Assembly (NCBI RefSeq): GCF_910592395.1
Contig: NC_088313.1
Span: 17,894,500-17,949,403 of the forward strand
DNA: 54,904 nt
Source: Lineus longissimus
Taxonomy: Eukaryota
Reading direction: 5' to 3'
A program made the position numbers and the translations under genes. Numbering within the stretch: position 1 is the first letter of the stretch; each line of letters opens with the position of its first letter. The notes under the pieces are model-generated. The model was given only the letters and a program-made list of their open reading frames with translations. It searched no databases and was not told where the DNA came from. Positions 1,968-54,904 of the stretch are shown piece by piece.

Positions 1968-2006
1968 ATGGCGGACGTGAAGGCGCTGGAACATCCAACT
2001 CTCAAG
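1968..2006 (+). CDS. MAEA: MAEA (macrophage erythroblast attacher / CTLH-complex E3 subunit) coding exon 1: MADVKALEHPTLK
   Basis: ATG at 1968; translation matches the MAEA N-terminus (..YPTLK|VPYE..); GT donor at 2007. Confidence 0.75.
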
Positions 2007-2187
2007 GTTTTGATCGATTTATTCATAATCGACGGGGAAAATATGCTAATTAAGAAGCTAGGCGTTTAAATGAGATAACATGGTTTCGAATAAATATCGG
2101 TTTTATAGGGTTTCCGCCGCCGAGTTTGCTGAAAATTGACCCTCCGTTGCGATGTTTACATTCTTGGGAAGCCACCCCAATCACTGT

Positions 2188-2228
2188 ACATGATGGCATG
2201 TACATGTACATGTACATGTACATGTACA
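2188..2228. repeat. (CATGTA)n microsatellite
   Basis: catgtacatgtacatgtacatgtacatgtaca. Confidence 0.9.
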
Positions 2229-2392
2229 CTCCACAATACATTACTCATTGTTACTTCATTGTGCTCTCTTCGAGGTTCGATTTTACCCAATACCTGAAAC
2301 TACACTTGGATCCTCAACTAGTAAAGTAAAATACGGAACGAGTTTGCAATCCCCGATCAGTGATCACACCTCATCGGTTGACTAGTCTAACG

Positions 2393-2490
2393 AAGCACCA
2401 CTGTTCAATGGATTTATAGTTGAATGCGATCAAACTACGTCATTTCCGATCAGGGATTGTAAATTTTAACCTAAAATACAATACATCCCA
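2393..2490 (+). repeat. Short dispersed repeat, copy 2 (in MAEA intron 1)
   Basis: Near-identical to 1050-1145. Confidence 0.75.
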
Positions 2491-2890
2491 ACTTGTGAAA
2501 GACTATTTGTGCTCGAGTACACTCTACAGACTACATACATGTACAGTCTACAATGGCAGTGCTAGTGCAGTGTCAAGAGACAGAGTGTCAGTGTACGTGA
2601 CTGTGATAAAAACCCACGCCACAGCACAGGCACACAGCAGACAGTGTCAGTGAAGACACGCTGCAGATAGGGCAGAACGAGAGACATGTCTGGGCAAGGT
2701 AGTTTTGACATTGCACCTACCAACAACACTAACACTCACAGCCTCGGTCACCACGCTCAGGGCCATGGACCCAAGGCCAAGTCCTACTCTCTGTGTCTTC
2801 TAGTAGGTTGTGCAATGAAGACTGCCAACATTGACTACAGTTTAGCATGTCTTTGAGAGCCATTCTTTTACTAAAAATGTTCCAATTTAG

Positions 2891-3073
2891 GTTCCATACG
2901 AAGTATTGAACAAGAAGTTCCGCACTGCCCAGAAAAATATTGACAGAGAAGTTGCCCATATTCAGACTGCAACCTGTGATTTGGAGAAGTGTCTTCAACA
3001 ACAACCTTCTACTGGAGAAGTCAACAAAATGCTGGATGGTGTGGTGGAAAAACTCACTTTGTTGAAGCGAAAG
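2891..3073 (+). CDS. MAEA: MAEA coding exon 2 (VPYEVLNKKFRTAQKNIDRE...LTLLKRK)
   Basis: AG acceptor at 2889-2890, GT at 3074; strong similarity to vertebrate MAEA residues ~15-75. Confidence 0.85.
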
Positions 3074-3305
3074 GTATAGCTTTGCCAAAGATCTTACCTT
3101 AACTATCGGTGCTTAGGATAACTTCATAATCACTTTCAATTATCTTGTCCTTCTATTGTTGATTGCTTTTTAATCTATAACTTCTCAAAACTAAATACAA
3201 ATGTATATTATTTTAAACACTGATGCCTCCGATTTTGACGGGTAACAACTACATGTAACTGGTTTAATTGAAAGTTTCTTTGAAATTGTACTCTTGAAAT
3301 TTCAG

Positions 3306-3509
3306 GCTGAGGAGAGTGTGGCTGATGAAACTGAAGCTGCAAAGGCGTGCAAGAGAAGAGTGGACCACTTGAAAGAGTTTGAAAGGCTAAGTGTGACTGC
3401 CCAAAACCAGTGGAAGAAGAAACGCCTTGATCGAATGCTGGTGGACTACTTCCTGAGATCTGGCTACTACAATACTGCGCTGAAATTGGCTCAGGACTCA
3501 AGTATAGAG
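3306..3509 (+). CDS. MAEA: MAEA coding exon 3 (LisH region; ...LVDYFLRSGYYNTALKLAQDSSIE)
   Basis: ttcag acceptor, gtatga donor; conserved LisH motif. Confidence 0.85.
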
Positions 3510-3748
3510 GTATGATGTAAGGCCTTTTCAGAACGTGTGATTTTCATCACACGTACATCTTTTTTGAATAACGCTGTCTTCCCATTTAGTTCTTTGATGA
3601 CTTTAAACCTTACTGGAGGATGGTGGGCGCTGTTAAGGATGACTGCAACATTACCTACCTTCTTTTTGAAGTCTTAGGATTGTGATGTTGTAAATCATGA
3701 ACGTTTCAAGCTTACATCAGTACATGATAGTTAACATTCCCTTTTTAG

Positions 3749-3871
3749 GATCTGACCAACATCGAGCTGTTCCTGATCAGCAAGGAGGTGGAGGAATCCC
3801 TCATGACAAAGGAGACTGCGAAATGTCTCACCTGGTGTCATGACAACAAGTCAAAGCTTAGGAAATTAAAG
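3749..3871 (+). CDS. MAEA: MAEA coding exon 4 (CTLH; [18 protein letters not shown]...KSKLRKLK)
   Basis: ctttttag acceptor, gtatgc donor; frame continuous with exon 3. Confidence 0.85.
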
Positions 3872-4026
3872 GTATGCATTAAATATGAGCTTTGAATACA
3901 GTAATGTTAGATCATTCAAGCTGATTTCAACATTACTTGCCTTGGTATGAAGTTCAAAATAGCGTAGATACCAATCTGTCTTATGCCCTAATCATATGTT
4001 TATAGTACAACATCTATGTTTTGCAG

Positions 4027-52060: not shown

Positions 52061-52689
52061 ATACTGTATGTAATGGAACAAACGAAAATATTCAATCAAT
52101 GGGTTTATTCACAAGTTCTTACTTACATTTTAATCACAAAAATATAAATGCTGACATTCTGGTCAGTAAATTAATTTTGGTCAACATTTGCATGAAAATC
52201 ATGCACGTTACAAACACCATGTACTGACACCTTAACCAACCTAGCAGGGAATGGAACCGAGGCAGCAAACCACCAGTCAGCCATATACATGTAGTCATCA
52301 CTTTTAAGAGTGGACTATACTAGGCAGGAGCTTGGGGTCCCACTGCTGGTTACAGTGTGAACATTGTGTGCAGAAAGGGGACAGGTCTTCTTGACGTTGT
52401 GATAAAAAGATCTCTCATACAGGCATGAAATGTGCTGATGTAATGTTAGAAGTATAGGCAAATGATATCAATCACTTTGTGAACACTAATCTTGCCCTTG
52501 ATCCTGCCTACATGTACAGTCTTCAGAAATGCACTGCATGTGTCTTCACACAAGACTTCACAAGACGCTCCTTCCTGTGAATGGCAATGTCACATCAAAG
52601 AATGTCAGAAAGTAGCAAAATGCAGAATTCAGCACCAGTCCAAATGCCAGCACATTCAATGACAATTTCAACATTGTTCCAATCCTACT

Positions 52690-52826
52690 TCACCAATCTG
52701 CACTGTTGTTTGCAAGATAGTCCTTTCTGCCGATGTTCTGTGCCTGTTTGCTCTGCATTGCCTCTAATCTTGGACAGTCTGTGATTCGGTGACCAAGACC
52801 ACTGCAGTACAAACATCCAACTTCAC
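52690..52826 (-). CDS. DDX41: DDX41 terminal coding exon with CCHC zinc knuckle ([44 protein letters not shown])
   Basis: ccttgcag acceptor; the zinc knuckle C-x2-C-x4-H-x4-C and the following residues match the human DDX41 C-terminus almost residue for residue. Confidence 0.85.
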
Positions 52827-53039
52827 CTGCAAGGAGACAATAGAGTAATGAAACAGTTAGAAAATATTTTTCCAAGTGATAATGTACATGTGGTGAAGGA
52901 GACTTGACATTAGAACAGTTGAATATCTTCCCTTTTCGGAGAGACTGTCAGAATTGGAGATATAATCACTCAACTCGAGGTTCCTAATAACGTCAAATCG
53001 TAACCAAGACGATGAAGACATTGGAAGACTTCTGCTTAC

Positions 53040-53150
53040 CTCCAATATCAAGATATTTCTCATTTTCTGACTGTAGTGTGGCCAGGAATAATGGAACCTT
53101 CTGTCCAGCTTCGATCAACAGATGCTTCAGATCTAGTAAAATGGACTCTT
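53040..53150 (-). CDS. DDX41: DDX41 coding exon (EESILLDLKHLLIEAGQKVPLFLATLQSENEKYLDIG.)
   Basis: ctttttcag acceptor, GTAAGC donor; matches human DESVLMDLKALLLEAKQKVPPVLQVL. Confidence 0.8.
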
Positions 53151-53560
53151 CTGAAAAAGTTAATATATTTGATGTTTGAAGTAATGTGTCTTGGCAAATC
53201 GAACATGCAAAGCAGGAGAAATGTAGAATATGTTTCTGGTGAGCTAACATGTAAACGCTGCTTTTTTCTTACATATAATTGTTTTTTAAATCATGCACAT
53301 AGTCTCGGTTGGAGTACAGACATGAAATCAATGATGCTATGTTATATGATGTGTACAATGCAAAATCCATATAACCGTGGAACGAGGGGTATCTGACTGT
53401 CCCTGTCCGTAGATTAGACCGTTGTGATTGAACGTGGCGTCAATACTGTATAACCCTGCGGGAAGAGCCAATGGAAAATGCCAATCAAACTGTCATGGTG
53501 TTCTCAAAGGCATATCTATCAAAAGAACTGTAACCAAAGAACTGTATCAAAAGAACTTAC

Positions 53561-53632
53561 CACAACCCTTGTTGATGAACGTAGTTGCTGTACCCATGTT
53601 TTCTCTTCGACCAGTACGACCAATCCTGTGAA
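53561..53632 (-). CDS. DDX41: DDX41 coding exon (VHRIGRTGRRENMGTATTFINKGC)
   Basis: tttcag acceptor, GTAAGT donor; helicase motif VI HRIGRTGR. Confidence 0.85.
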
Positions 53633-53911
53633 CTGAAATCCGACAAGATAATTGTTAGAATTTAGATGCCGAAGTCACATTTTCTCGAAGTGGAAAATTC
53701 CCAACCTGACACATTTGTTAGCAGGATAACCTCTCTGCTTCAGACTCATATTTCGTCAGAGAATGGGGATCTTCTATTCAATCTGTCCTTTGTAATCCAG
53801 ACCCAGGCCAAGGTGTTCTTAGTGGAGAGATTCCACGACATATTTGAGCTTATAAGAGCATACTGTTATCAAAGCAACTTCTGATAAAGCACTAAAGTTC
53901 AAGGTTCTTAC

Positions 53912-54061
53912 CATAGTTCTCGATATCGTCAGGCATATCATAGTTGATCACATGTTGAACATCGGAGAAATCTAAACCTTTAGATGCCACATCTGTAGCT
54001 ACGAGAACATCCTTCTCTCCCTTTCTGAACTGATCCACAGACCGTGATCGATCTTCCTGGT
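53912..54061 (-). CDS. DDX41: DDX41 coding exon ([50 protein letters not shown])
   Basis: tttgcag acceptor, GTAAGA donor; helicase C-terminal domain. Confidence 0.85.
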
Positions 54062-54335
54062 CTGCAAATATCACAAATTGTCAGCGCCGTCAACAGCGTG
54101 ATCTATGCGCAAGTCACTTCACCACAATTAGCATCCTCTGAGGTAGGCATATAACTAGGGTTTCTGGGGTACACTGAGCAAAAAACCCCATCGAAGTGTT
54201 TACATGAGTAGGCTGTGATGAACCCATCCTCCCTCGCCAAAGAAGGATTCCCTATGTGAGTAATCCCAATTGGTGCCCAACAAATGCTCGTACTCGTAGG
54301 AGCAAGGTCAAAGAAACAAAGTGGAAAATTCTCAC

Positions 54336-54432
54336 CTTTGCCACCATGTATGGCCACAGCCTCGACACCTTTCAGTAACAAATACTCATGGATAGCATCG
54401 ACATCCTGCTTCTTCTCCGCAAATACCAAAAC
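54336..54432 (-). CDS. DDX41: DDX41 coding exon ([32 protein letters not shown].)
   Basis: cttaag acceptor, GTGAGA donor; matches human [32 protein letters not shown]. Confidence 0.85.
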
Positions 54433-54696
54433 CTTAAGATAAAAAACATAAAATCGTAAACAAAATCTTATCAAAAATAAAAGAAAGTAACAACTCTCAT
54501 CTTTAGAGGGCACCCACACCAATATTTTACACCGCTATTACCCTCAATCACATGTTTTCAGGATTTAAAATTTTACTCCTTTACTTTTTAATGCCAGCAC
54601 TGAAATATCAATAACCAAAAGGTTTTGAGCAAATTTCTTCAGTATTAGTCACATCTTGATCTTGTTTCTTTTCTCCCTATTCAGGTCAATACTCAC

Positions 54697-54904
54697 CGGC
54701 GGGCTAGTTTTCTGTAAGCACTCCAAGATAGCGACAACCTTTGCTTCCTGTTTGACATACTCCACCTCCTGGGTGACATTGGTACTTGCAGCACCAGCAC
54801 GGCCAACATTAATTGTGACGGGTTTGACCAGAGCACTACGAGCAAAATTCTGAATCTTCTTAGGCATTGTTGCAGAGAAGAGTAATGTCTGTCTTTGACC
54901 CTGA
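54697..54904 (-). CDS. DDX41: DDX41 coding exon, partial (..[69 protein letters not shown]); runs off the window edge
   Basis: GTGAGT donor at 54696-54691; the frame is open to the window end; matches human [39 protein letters not shown]. Confidence 0.85.

What the first reader, a model, noticed from the sequence alone, without database searches (positions are those of the whole stretch)
1968..54904. Gene neighbourhood matches the pre-duplication PPP2R2 paralogon (MAEA / DDX41 / AS3MT around a single B55 gene)
In human the four B55 paralogs lie on 8p21 (PPP2R2A), 5q32 (PPP2R2B), 4p16 (PPP2R2C) and 10q26 (PPP2R2D). Here a single B55 gene is flanked within 55 kb by orthologs of MAEA (4p16), DDX41 (5q35) and AS3MT (10q24). 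That is the pattern expected for an unduplicated ancestral linkage group in a non-vertebrate deuterostome such as a cephalochordate. The compact introns are consistent with this.
Basis: partly seen in the sequence, partly recalled or inferred. Interest (0 to 1): 0.5.

Follow-up and report, generated by a model that had tools for sequence, protein, structure and literature searches.

The report
Ancient gene neighbourhood in a ribbon worm
This 55-kb stretch of the bootlace worm (Lineus longissimus) genome carries one B55 phosphatase-subunit gene beside MAEA, AS3MT and DDX41, whose human counterparts sit next to three different B55 copies; this is a correct but ordinary example of gene linkage, already documented, that predates the vertebrate genome duplications.

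Summary
The window holds MAEA (1968-5635, +), one B55/PPP2R2 gene (29336-36833, +), AS3MT (41620-44873, -) and the 3' part of DDX41 (52690-54904, -). It also holds UBOX5/RNF37, an HDNR-family gene and a transposon-like insert.

The taxonomic guess is wrong. UBOX5 and AS3MT are 100% identical to NCBI proteins of Lineus longissimus, a nemertean and therefore a protostome, not a cephalochordate or any deuterostome. All three Lineus proteins, B55 included, lie on one 21.66-Mb contig. So the linkage goes back at least to the bilaterian ancestor, not only to chordates.

- **Same chromosome elsewhere:** matching contig lengths and record names place B55, UBOX5 and AS3MT together in gastropods, bivalves, a second nemertean and amphioxus, and in part in an annelid.
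- **Local order:** in the annelid Owenia, DDX41 lies tail-to-tail about 9 kb from B55, as in Lineus.
- **Gene tree:** Lineus B55 falls outside a single vertebrate alpha-delta clade.

Lineus is already reported to preserve the 24 bilaterian ancestral linkage groups, so any window of this genome should look like this. Interest is low. It is a sound instance of a known phenomenon.

The parts
1968..5635 (+). MAEA orthologue (E3 ubiquitin-protein transferase MAEA), 9 coding exons
   Evidence: ATG at 1968 followed by a GT donor. Exons were read from ORF translations and placed by tblastn. The assembled protein scores 545.8 bits and E 3.6e-163 over the full length of human MAEA 8pjn_i.
9541..9954 (-). 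Terminal exon of a small HDNR-family (PF15115) gene; upstream exons not located
   Evidence: The ORF alone gives a weak PF15115 match (E 2e-4, below the curated cut-off). There are 65 homologues in the representative library. Of 22 aligned homologues, 17 match PF15115, best E 2.1e-31. The closest homologue, P0302, aligns at 74% over 9954-9544.
14920..16632 (-). UBOX5 / RING finger protein 37 orthologue, coding region in a single exon (570 aa)
   Evidence: Pfam DUF5918 (1.6e-53) plus U-box (1.7e-19) plus a C-terminal RING. It is 100% identical over 100% of its length to P0123 'RING finger protein 37-like [Lineus longissimus]'.
29336..36833 (+). The single B55 (PPP2R2) gene: PP2A 55-kDa regulatory subunit B, about 9 coding exons; NCBI annotates two N-terminal variants (the N-terminus of the 443-aa form was not mapped here)
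   Evidence: tblastn of P0002 and P0001 (XP_064631596/598) gives exons at 29336-29425, 30018-30089, 33220-33318, 33509-33694, 33899-34207, 35130-35339, 35955-36218 and 36555-36830.
41620..44873 (-). AS3MT (arsenite methyltransferase) orthologue, at least 7 coding exons mapped
   Evidence: 100% identical to P0182 'arsenite methyltransferase-like [Lineus longissimus]'. Exon map. It scores 314 bits to PDB arsenite methyltransferase 8xt7_A.
48281..50614 (.). Transposon-like insert between AS3MT and DDX41: about 169-nt terminal inverted repeats, inner arrays of a 16-nt repeat, and a 297-aa FLYWCH + PHD ORF (48877-49770, -)
   Evidence: Inverted repeats I1, I2 and I4, and the self-blastn match 50446-50614 against 48448-48281 at 97.6%. 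Tandem arrays. Pfam FLYWCH 4.2e-6 and PHD 1.8e-4. GC is 0.50 here against 0.38-0.45 nearby. It is not part of the conserved linkage.
52690..54904 (-). 3' half of the DDX41 orthologue (DEAD-box helicase 41); the gene runs off the right end of the window
   Evidence: Six C-terminal coding exons were read from the ORFs; tblastn maps five of them. The fragment scores 437.9 bits and E 9.9e-131 to human DDX41 8c6j_CD residues 367-621, including the C-terminal zinc knuckle. The next best match, DDX3X, scores 176 bits.

Best explanation
The window is an ordinary, gene-dense piece of a Lineus longissimus (Nemertea) chromosome. Its gene order is MAEA, an HDNR-family gene, UBOX5, B55, AS3MT, a transposon-like insert, then DDX41. 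This lineage never went through the two vertebrate whole-genome duplications, so it has one B55 gene. In vertebrates the ancestral chromosome carrying these genes was quadruplicated. All four B55 copies survived (8p21, 5q32, 4p16, 10q26). MAEA, DDX41 and AS3MT each kept only one copy, each on a different daughter region (4p16.3, 5q35.3, 10q24.32). The Lineus neighbourhood therefore shows together what is spread over three human chromosomes. The linkage is of bilaterian age and belongs to the conserved macrosynteny (ancestral linkage groups) already described for this genome. Nothing suggests that the genes work together; the mechanism is passive retention of synteny followed by differential loss of duplicates. 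What is shown: the gene identities, the species, the human locations, same-chromosome linkage in several phyla, and the B55 tree. What is inferred: that the common ancestor had these genes on one chromosome, and that the single-copy human genes result from loss of duplicates.
For: - **Species:** UBOX5 (570 aa) and AS3MT are 100% identical to NCBI Lineus longissimus proteins, and B55 matches XP_064631596/598. All are on one 21,663,950-bp contig. Taxonomy.
- **Orthology to the human genes:**
- **Human locations:**
- **Published paralogon 4p16/5q35/8p/10q, with a first split of 4/5 against 8/10:** PMC2655272 and PMC3603308.
- **B55 gene tree (neighbour-joining, 443 columns):** vertebrate alpha, beta, gamma and delta form one clade in 494/500 bootstraps. 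Beta groups with gamma in 495/500 and alpha with delta in 485/500, which matches the 4/5 against 8/10 split. Lineus groups with Tubulanus in 475/500.
  - B55, UBOX5 and AS3MT together in Gigantopelta aegis (91,665,651) and Haliotis asinina (52,850,021).
  - B55 and AS3MT in Tubulanus polymorphus (31,900,244) and Sinanodonta woodiana (140,592,063).
  - UBOX5 and AS3MT in Branchiostoma lanceolatum (34,449,865), Pecten maximus (42,360,788) and Argopecten irradians (43,197,688).
  - B55 and UBOX5 in the Branchiostoma floridae x japonicum hybrid (34,421,708) and in Owenia (42,456,855).
  - The Owenia pair was confirmed by record name, CAIIXF020000005.1, at 22.7 Mb and 9.1 Mb.
- **Local order:** in Owenia, DDX41 (-) lies about 9 kb 3' of B55 (+), tail-to-tail as in Lineus.
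- **Amphioxus:** the 3' neighbour of B55 is an NT5C2 orthologue (273.9 bits). Human NT5C2 sits beside AS3MT at 10q24.32.
- **Published background:** L. longissimus largely preserves the 24 bilaterian linkage groups (PMC11789643; PMC8809688).
Against: - UBOX5 is at human 20p13, outside the four classical regions. Yet it shares a chromosome with B55 in five invertebrate genomes, so the human position needs a later rearrangement or a wider definition of the paralogon. I did not test this.
- The human HDNR-family gene is, from my memory, C5orf49 on 5p15, also outside the four regions.
- AS3MT is on a different chromosome from B55 in Owenia (35,751,742 against 42,456,855). AS3MT and UBOX5 are on different contigs in the hemichordate Glandiceps.
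- The immediate neighbours of B55 differ in Tubulanus, Capitella and amphioxus, so the tight 55-kb arrangement is not generally conserved.
- I could not place the MAEA or DDX41 orthologues on amphioxus or mollusc chromosomes.
- I ran no genome-wide statistical test, and the letter of the ancestral linkage group was not determined.
Confidence: 0.9

Rival explanations
1. Chance. Four unrelated genes happen to lie together in Lineus, and their human orthologues happen to fall near B55 paralogues.
For: Only three neighbours carry the signal. Two others, UBOX5 at 20p13 and the HDNR gene, do not map to the four regions. No genome-wide test was run.
Against: By my rough estimate, not a computation, the four human regions hold about 5-6% of human genes. 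Three hits out of five neighbours would then have a probability of about 1e-3. Independently of the human map, B55, UBOX5 and AS3MT share a chromosome in nemerteans, gastropods, bivalves and amphioxus. With 10-20 chromosomes per genome, each such pair would coincide by chance only 5-10% of the time. The literature reports this conservation genome-wide for Lineus.
Confidence: 0.03
2. The source is a deuterostome (a cephalochordate or similar), and the linkage is a chordate-level feature.
For: Amphioxus also has the B55, UBOX5 and AS3MT orthologues on one chromosome, so the pattern alone cannot tell the two apart.
Against: Lineus longissimus proteins are 100% identical to the window's UBOX5 and AS3MT, whereas Branchiostoma UBOX5 is only 30% identical. 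The B55 hits after the two nemerteans are annelids and molluscs at 85-88%, with Branchiostoma at 82%. Lineus is in Protostomia, Spiralia, Nemertea.
Confidence: 0.01
3. The tight cluster, or at least the tail-to-tail B55-DDX41 pair, is a conserved microsyntenic block held together by shared regulation, rather than a passive leftover of chromosome-scale linkage.
For: DDX41 lies 3' of B55 in the same tail-to-tail orientation in Owenia (Annelida, about 9 kb away) and in Lineus (about 16 kb away, with AS3MT and a transposon-like insert in between).
Against: The pairing is absent within 10 kb of B55 in Tubulanus (the other nemertean), Capitella and amphioxus. There is no detectable non-coding similarity between the Lineus intergenic DNA and any fetched locus. 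In human, PPP2R2B (5q31-32) and DDX41 (5q35.3) lie in different bands of the same arm. Only two genomes show the pairing.
Confidence: 0.08

Closest known systems
Human 4p16 / 5q35 / 8p21 (2p) / 10q24-26 paralogon, also called the NK-linked, 'MetaHox' or FGFR paralogon (Pebusque 1998 and Putnam 2008, as cited in PMC3603308; PMC2655272)
   Same: The four human B55 genes lie one per region. MAEA, DDX41 and AS3MT each lie in one of the regions. The B55 tree ((beta,gamma),(alpha,delta)) reproduces the published order of splits, 4/5 against 8/10.
   Different: The papers I could search did not name PPP2R2, MAEA, DDX41 or AS3MT as members. UBOX5 (20p13) shares a chromosome with B55 in invertebrates but lies outside the classical four regions in human.
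Bilaterian ancestral linkage groups (Simakov et al. 2022, PMC8809688) and their reported preservation in Lineus longissimus (Lewin et al. 2025, PMC11789643)
   Same: The orthologues share a chromosome across Nemertea, Mollusca, Annelida (in part) and Chordata, while local gene order is mostly scrambled. That is exactly the published pattern.
   Different: I could not assign the window to a named linkage group, because the supplementary tables are not held. The window is one local sample, not a genome-wide analysis.
The B55 locus of Owenia fusiformis (GCA_903813345.2, CAIIXF020000005.1, 22.72-22.74 Mb)
   Same: B55 (+) is followed by DDX41 (-), tail-to-tail. UBOX5 is on the same chromosome, and its coding region is a single exon there too.
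   Different: There is no AS3MT between B55 and DDX41; Owenia AS3MT is on another chromosome. UBOX5 is 13.6 Mb away in Owenia, against 12.7 kb in Lineus.

Membership tests
Pre-duplication counterpart of the vertebrate 4p16/5q/8p/10q paralogon | The anchor gene family has one invertebrate pro-orthologue and vertebrate duplicates, one per paralogous region | tested here: met
   There is one B55 gene in the window, and no second hit comes from the 21.66-Mb Lineus contig. Vertebrate alpha-delta form one clade that excludes Lineus (494/500). The human copies are at 8p21, 5q31-32, 4p16.1 and 10q26.3. I could not fully check that Lineus has only one copy genome-wide, because the source names are truncated.
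Pre-duplication counterpart of the vertebrate 4p16/5q/8p/10q paralogon | Neighbouring genes have human orthologues inside the paralogous regions | tested here: met
   MAEA at 4p16.3, DDX41 at 5q35.3 and AS3MT at 10q24.32.
Pre-duplication counterpart of the vertebrate 4p16/5q/8p/10q paralogon | All, or a statistically significant excess, of the neighbours map to the paralogon | tested here: inconclusive
   Three of five identifiable neighbours map there. UBOX5 is at 20p13. The human HDNR-family gene is C5orf49 on 5p15 from my memory only. No genome-wide enrichment test was possible.
Bilaterian ancestral linkage group (sensu Simakov 2022) | Orthologues lie on one chromosome in several distantly related, unduplicated genomes | tested here: met
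The Owenia B55 and UBOX5 pair was confirmed by record name. The exceptions are Owenia AS3MT and the Glandiceps AS3MT/UBOX5 pair. MAEA and DDX41 were not tested at chromosome scale, apart from DDX41 in Owenia.
Bilaterian ancestral linkage group (sensu Simakov 2022) | Assignment to one of the 24 named groups through marker orthologues | not testable with these tools
   The supplementary marker tables of PMC8809688 and PMC11789643 are not held.
   The proteins are 100% identical to Lineus longissimus (Nemertea) proteins. Branchiostoma is 30% identical for UBOX5, 82% for B55 and 55% for AS3MT.
Conserved microsyntenic block | The same adjacency and orientation in several phyla | tested here: inconclusive
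   B55 and DDX41 lie tail-to-tail in Lineus and Owenia, but not within 10 kb of B55 in Tubulanus, Capitella or amphioxus. No conserved non-coding DNA was found.

The most novel reading that the evidence does not exclude
The tail-to-tail B55-DDX41 pairing seen in both a nemertean and an annelid could be a remnant of an ancestral spiralian, or older, microsyntenic block kept by shared regulation. In addition, AS3MT sits on the B55 chromosome from nemerteans and molluscs to amphioxus, and on the arm of a B55 copy in human. That would date animal AS3MT to before the bilaterian ancestor, which constrains proposals I recall (not checked here) that eukaryotic AS3MT arose by several horizontal transfers.
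Probability: 0.12. Interest if true: 0.3.

Novelty: already known. Interest (0 to 1): 0.15.

Why it matters
It matters little beyond being a clean textbook illustration. One worm locus shows together what two rounds of vertebrate genome duplication, followed by loss of different duplicates, spread over human 4p16, 5q32-35 and 10q24-26. It also suggests two small additions to the gene content of the group: UBOX5 (human 20p13) belongs to the same ancestral linkage, and AS3MT has been vertically inherited within it. None of this changes current understanding, because chromosome-scale conservation in Lineus longissimus is already published.

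Tried and rejected
- **Exact-product look-ups for the Lineus proteins found nothing**. The Lineus gene positions seem not to be indexed, so I could not read NCBI's annotation of the window or its flanks. The same happened for Lingula B55, Tubulanus AS3MT and Gigantopelta B55, so distances within a chromosome were obtained only for Owenia.
- **The linkage-group letter could not be determined.** The supplements of PMC8809688 and PMC11789643 are not held.
- **Some paper searches were unproductive.** Searches for PPP2R2 with 'paralogon' or 'ohnolog' found no paper treating B55 in this context. 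A search meant to test whether 20p13 belongs to the paralogon gave nothing useful.
- **No RNA genes were found:** no tRNA and no Rfam family.
- **Other long ORFs gave nothing.** Twelve intergenic, intronic or off-frame ORFs gave no credible Pfam hit, so I found no further genes.
- **MED31 is absent here.** It is fused to UBOX5 in the Owenia gene model but is not present in the Lineus window.
- **No non-coding similarity** to the loci fetched from other species.
- **Tree-building problems.** My first tree script timed out. In the first finished tree I had mislabelled P0064 '[Ho...' as a vertebrate; it clustered with an insect, so I removed it.
- **Neighbour identities held only as leads from memory.** I read the B55 neighbours in Tubulanus (an IRS-domain gene and a SAM+SH2 gene) and in Capitella (a clarin and an amine-oxidase-like gene, possibly PYROXD2) as likely members of the same human regions. 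That rests on my memory of human map positions and on Pfam domains alone, so I do not count it as evidence.

Full report
**What is in the window.** The sequence is eukaryotic, about 40% GC, with no tRNA genes and no Rfam hits. Six-frame ORF reading plus tblastn with retrieved proteins gives the gene map below.

| Window coordinates | Strand | Feature |
|---|---|---|
| 1968-5635 | + | MAEA, 9 coding exons |
| 9541-9954 | - | terminal exon of a small HDNR-family gene |
| 14920-16632 | - | UBOX5/RNF37, one coding exon, 570 aa |
| 29336-36833 | + | B55/PPP2R2, about 9 coding exons, two annotated N-terminal variants |
| 41620-44873 | - | AS3MT |
| 48281-50614 | . | transposon-like insert |
| 52690-54904 | - | 3' half of DDX41, cut by the window end |

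**Gene identities.** I tested orthology against solved human chains.
- MAEA scores 545.8 bits over the full length of human MAEA, against 68.5 bits for RMND5A.
- The DDX41 fragment scores 437.9 bits to human DDX41 residues 367-621, including the C-terminal zinc knuckle, against 176 bits for DDX3X.
- AS3MT scores 314 bits to the PDB arsenite methyltransferase 8xt7_A.
- UBOX5 has DUF5918, U-box and RING domains.
- The HDNR assignment rests on 17 of 22 homologues matching PF15115, best E 2.1e-31. The window ORF alone is below the Pfam cut-off.

**Source organism.** The UBOX5 ORF is 100% identical over all 570 residues to 'RING finger protein 37-like [Lineus longissimus]'. The next best hit is 63% identical. 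AS3MT is 100% identical to 'arsenite methyltransferase-like [Lineus longissimus]'. The B55 exons match XP_064631596/598. All three proteins sit on the same 21,663,950-bp contig. Lineus longissimus is a heteronemertean: Protostomia, Spiralia, Lophotrochozoa. The B55 hit list already pointed this way, with annelids and molluscs at 85-88% identity and Branchiostoma at 82%.

**The human side.**
- A PP2A review gives PPP2R2A at 8p21, PPP2R2B at 5q31-32, PPP2R2C at 4p16.1 and PPP2R2D at 10q26.3 (PMC12557939).
- MAEA is at 4p16.3 (PMC7798333).
- DDX41 is listed inside a 5q35.3 deletion (PMC3909616).
- AS3MT, CNNM2 and NT5C2 are at 10q24.32 (PMC7492806 and PMC4988385).
- A quadruplicated linkage group at 4p16, 5q35, 8p21 (with 2p) and 10q23-26 is long published and has been traced to invertebrates. 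Its first split separated 4/5 from 8/10 (PMC2655272; PMC3603308).

**Is Lineus B55 a pre-duplication gene?** I built a neighbour-joining tree from 19 B55 proteins over 443 aligned columns.
- All vertebrate alpha, beta, gamma and delta sequences fall in one clade that excludes every invertebrate (494/500 bootstraps).
- Beta groups with gamma (495/500) and alpha with delta (485/500).
- That is the 4/5 against 8/10 pattern expected from the paralogon's history.
- Lineus groups with the other nemertean, Tubulanus (475/500).

The tree is small and distance-based. Its labels rely on the source names printed.

**Is the linkage ancestral or a Lineus accident?** The homologue tables print the length of the contig carrying each protein. 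An identical length to the base pair identifies the same chromosome.

| Genes sharing a contig | Species (contig length in bp) |
|---|---|
| B55, UBOX5, AS3MT | Lineus (21,663,950); Gigantopelta aegis (91,665,651); Haliotis asinina (52,850,021) |
| B55, AS3MT | Tubulanus polymorphus (31,900,244); Sinanodonta woodiana (140,592,063) |
| UBOX5, AS3MT | Branchiostoma lanceolatum (34,449,865); Pecten maximus (42,360,788); Argopecten irradians (43,197,688) |
| B55, UBOX5 | Branchiostoma floridae x japonicum (34,421,708); Owenia fusiformis (42,456,855) |

I validated the method on Owenia, where both genes were fetched and lie on record CAIIXF020000005.1 at 22.7 Mb and 9.1 Mb.

There are two exceptions. 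Owenia AS3MT is on another chromosome. In the hemichordate Glandiceps, AS3MT and UBOX5 are on different contigs.

With 10-20 chromosomes per genome, a random pair would share a chromosome only about 5-10% of the time. Repeated co-location across Nemertea, Gastropoda, Bivalvia and Cephalochordata is therefore not chance. The linkage is at least as old as the bilaterian ancestor.

**Local gene order in other species.**
- In Owenia, a 631-residue DEAD-box gene lies about 9 kb 3' of B55 on the opposite strand. Its last 82 residues are 80% identical to Lineus DDX41. This is the same tail-to-tail arrangement as in Lineus.
- In amphioxus, the 3' neighbour of B55 is an NT5C2 orthologue (273.9 bits to human NT5C2). 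Human NT5C2 lies beside AS3MT at 10q24.32.
- In Tubulanus and Capitella, the immediate neighbours are different genes.
- No non-coding similarity was found between the Lineus intergenic DNA and any fetched locus.

So chromosome-scale linkage is conserved while local order is mostly scrambled. This is the pattern described for bilaterian ancestral linkage groups (PMC8809688).

**How it compares with what is known.** Lewin et al. state that L. longissimus largely preserves the 24 bilaterian linkage groups on separate chromosomes, with four fusions shared by lophotrochozoans (PMC11789643). Given that, almost any gene-dense window of this genome will hold genes whose human orthologues fall in one set of paralogous regions. 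The finding is a correct local instance of a published genome-wide result, not a new phenomenon. I found no paper naming PPP2R2, MAEA, DDX41 or AS3MT as members of this paralogon, but that is a matter of detail. I could not determine which named linkage group this is.

**What does not fit neatly.** Human UBOX5 is at 20p13 (PMC3704668), outside the four classical regions, although UBOX5 is linked to B55 in five invertebrate genomes. Either 20p13 is a displaced fragment of the same ancestral unit or UBOX5 moved. I did not test this. The human HDNR-family gene is, from my memory only, C5orf49 on 5p15.

**Verdict.** Novelty: already known. Interest: low, 0.15. The only mildly new leads are the B55-DDX41 tail-to-tail pairing shared by a nemertean and an annelid, and the stable place of AS3MT and UBOX5 in this linkage group.

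Noticed in passing
window 48281-50614: A transposon-like insert with about 169-nt terminal inverted repeats (97.6-99% complementary), inner arrays of a 16-nt repeat (GGGCCGTTTTGAC-like) in inverted orientation, and a 297-aa ORF (48877-49770, -) with PHD-like and FLYWCH zinc fingers but no recognisable transposase. GC is about 0.50 against 0.38-0.45 nearby.
   Followed up: partly
window 47413-47901: A short MITE-like element: 49-nt inverted arms, 96% complementary, containing (TTACGA)n, 391 nt apart.
   Followed up: no
window 18037-18425: A tandem array with a 56/107-bp period, about 6 copies, 88-90% matches, followed by a (TA)23 run, in the UBOX5-B55 intergenic region. A 137-nt palindrome-like stretch lies just upstream at 17755-17891.
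   Followed up: no
window 41295-41634 and 45410-45767: An interspersed repeat of about 360 bp (79% identity) flanks AS3MT on both sides in direct orientation. The downstream copy ends within about 12 bp of the last AS3MT coding exon.
   Followed up: no
window 34685-35022 and 35541-35878: A 338-bp direct repeat (96% identity) sits in the two B55 introns on either side of the exon at 35130-35339. Shorter related copies lie at 34887-35023 and 35743-35878.
   Followed up: no
window 9541-9954 (-): A small gene of the HDNR family (PF15115, domain of unknown function) lies between MAEA and UBOX5. Only its terminal exon was located. There are 65 homologues in the representative library, mostly 115-250 aa.
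   Followed up: partly
window 14920-16632; L006 11112-12683: The UBOX5 coding region is a single exon in both Lineus and Owenia. The Owenia gene model fuses it to an upstream Med31 domain. No MED31 is present in the Lineus window.
   Followed up: partly
L002 25098-25343 (Owenia fusiformis CAIIXF020000005.1): DDX41 lies about 9 kb 3' of B55, tail-to-tail, with no called gene in between. This is the same relative orientation as in Lineus.
   Followed up: partly
L001 49589-52775 (Branchiostoma floridae CM022889.1): The 3' neighbour of amphioxus B55 is an NT5C2 orthologue (273.9 bits to human cytosolic purine 5'-nucleotidase). In human, NT5C2 lies beside AS3MT at 10q24.32.
   Followed up: partly
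one search hit list (Tubulanus polymorphus P0223 and P0243): Tubulanus has two AS3MT-like genes on different chromosomes (23,044,209 and 31,900,244 bp). Only the second shares the B55 chromosome.
   Followed up: no
window 29336-30089: NCBI annotates two B55 N-termini for this gene (P0002, 470 aa, and P0001, 443 aa). P0002's first coding exon is at 29336-29425. The short 'MAGNGGD' N-terminus of P0001 was not mapped exactly.
   Followed up: no
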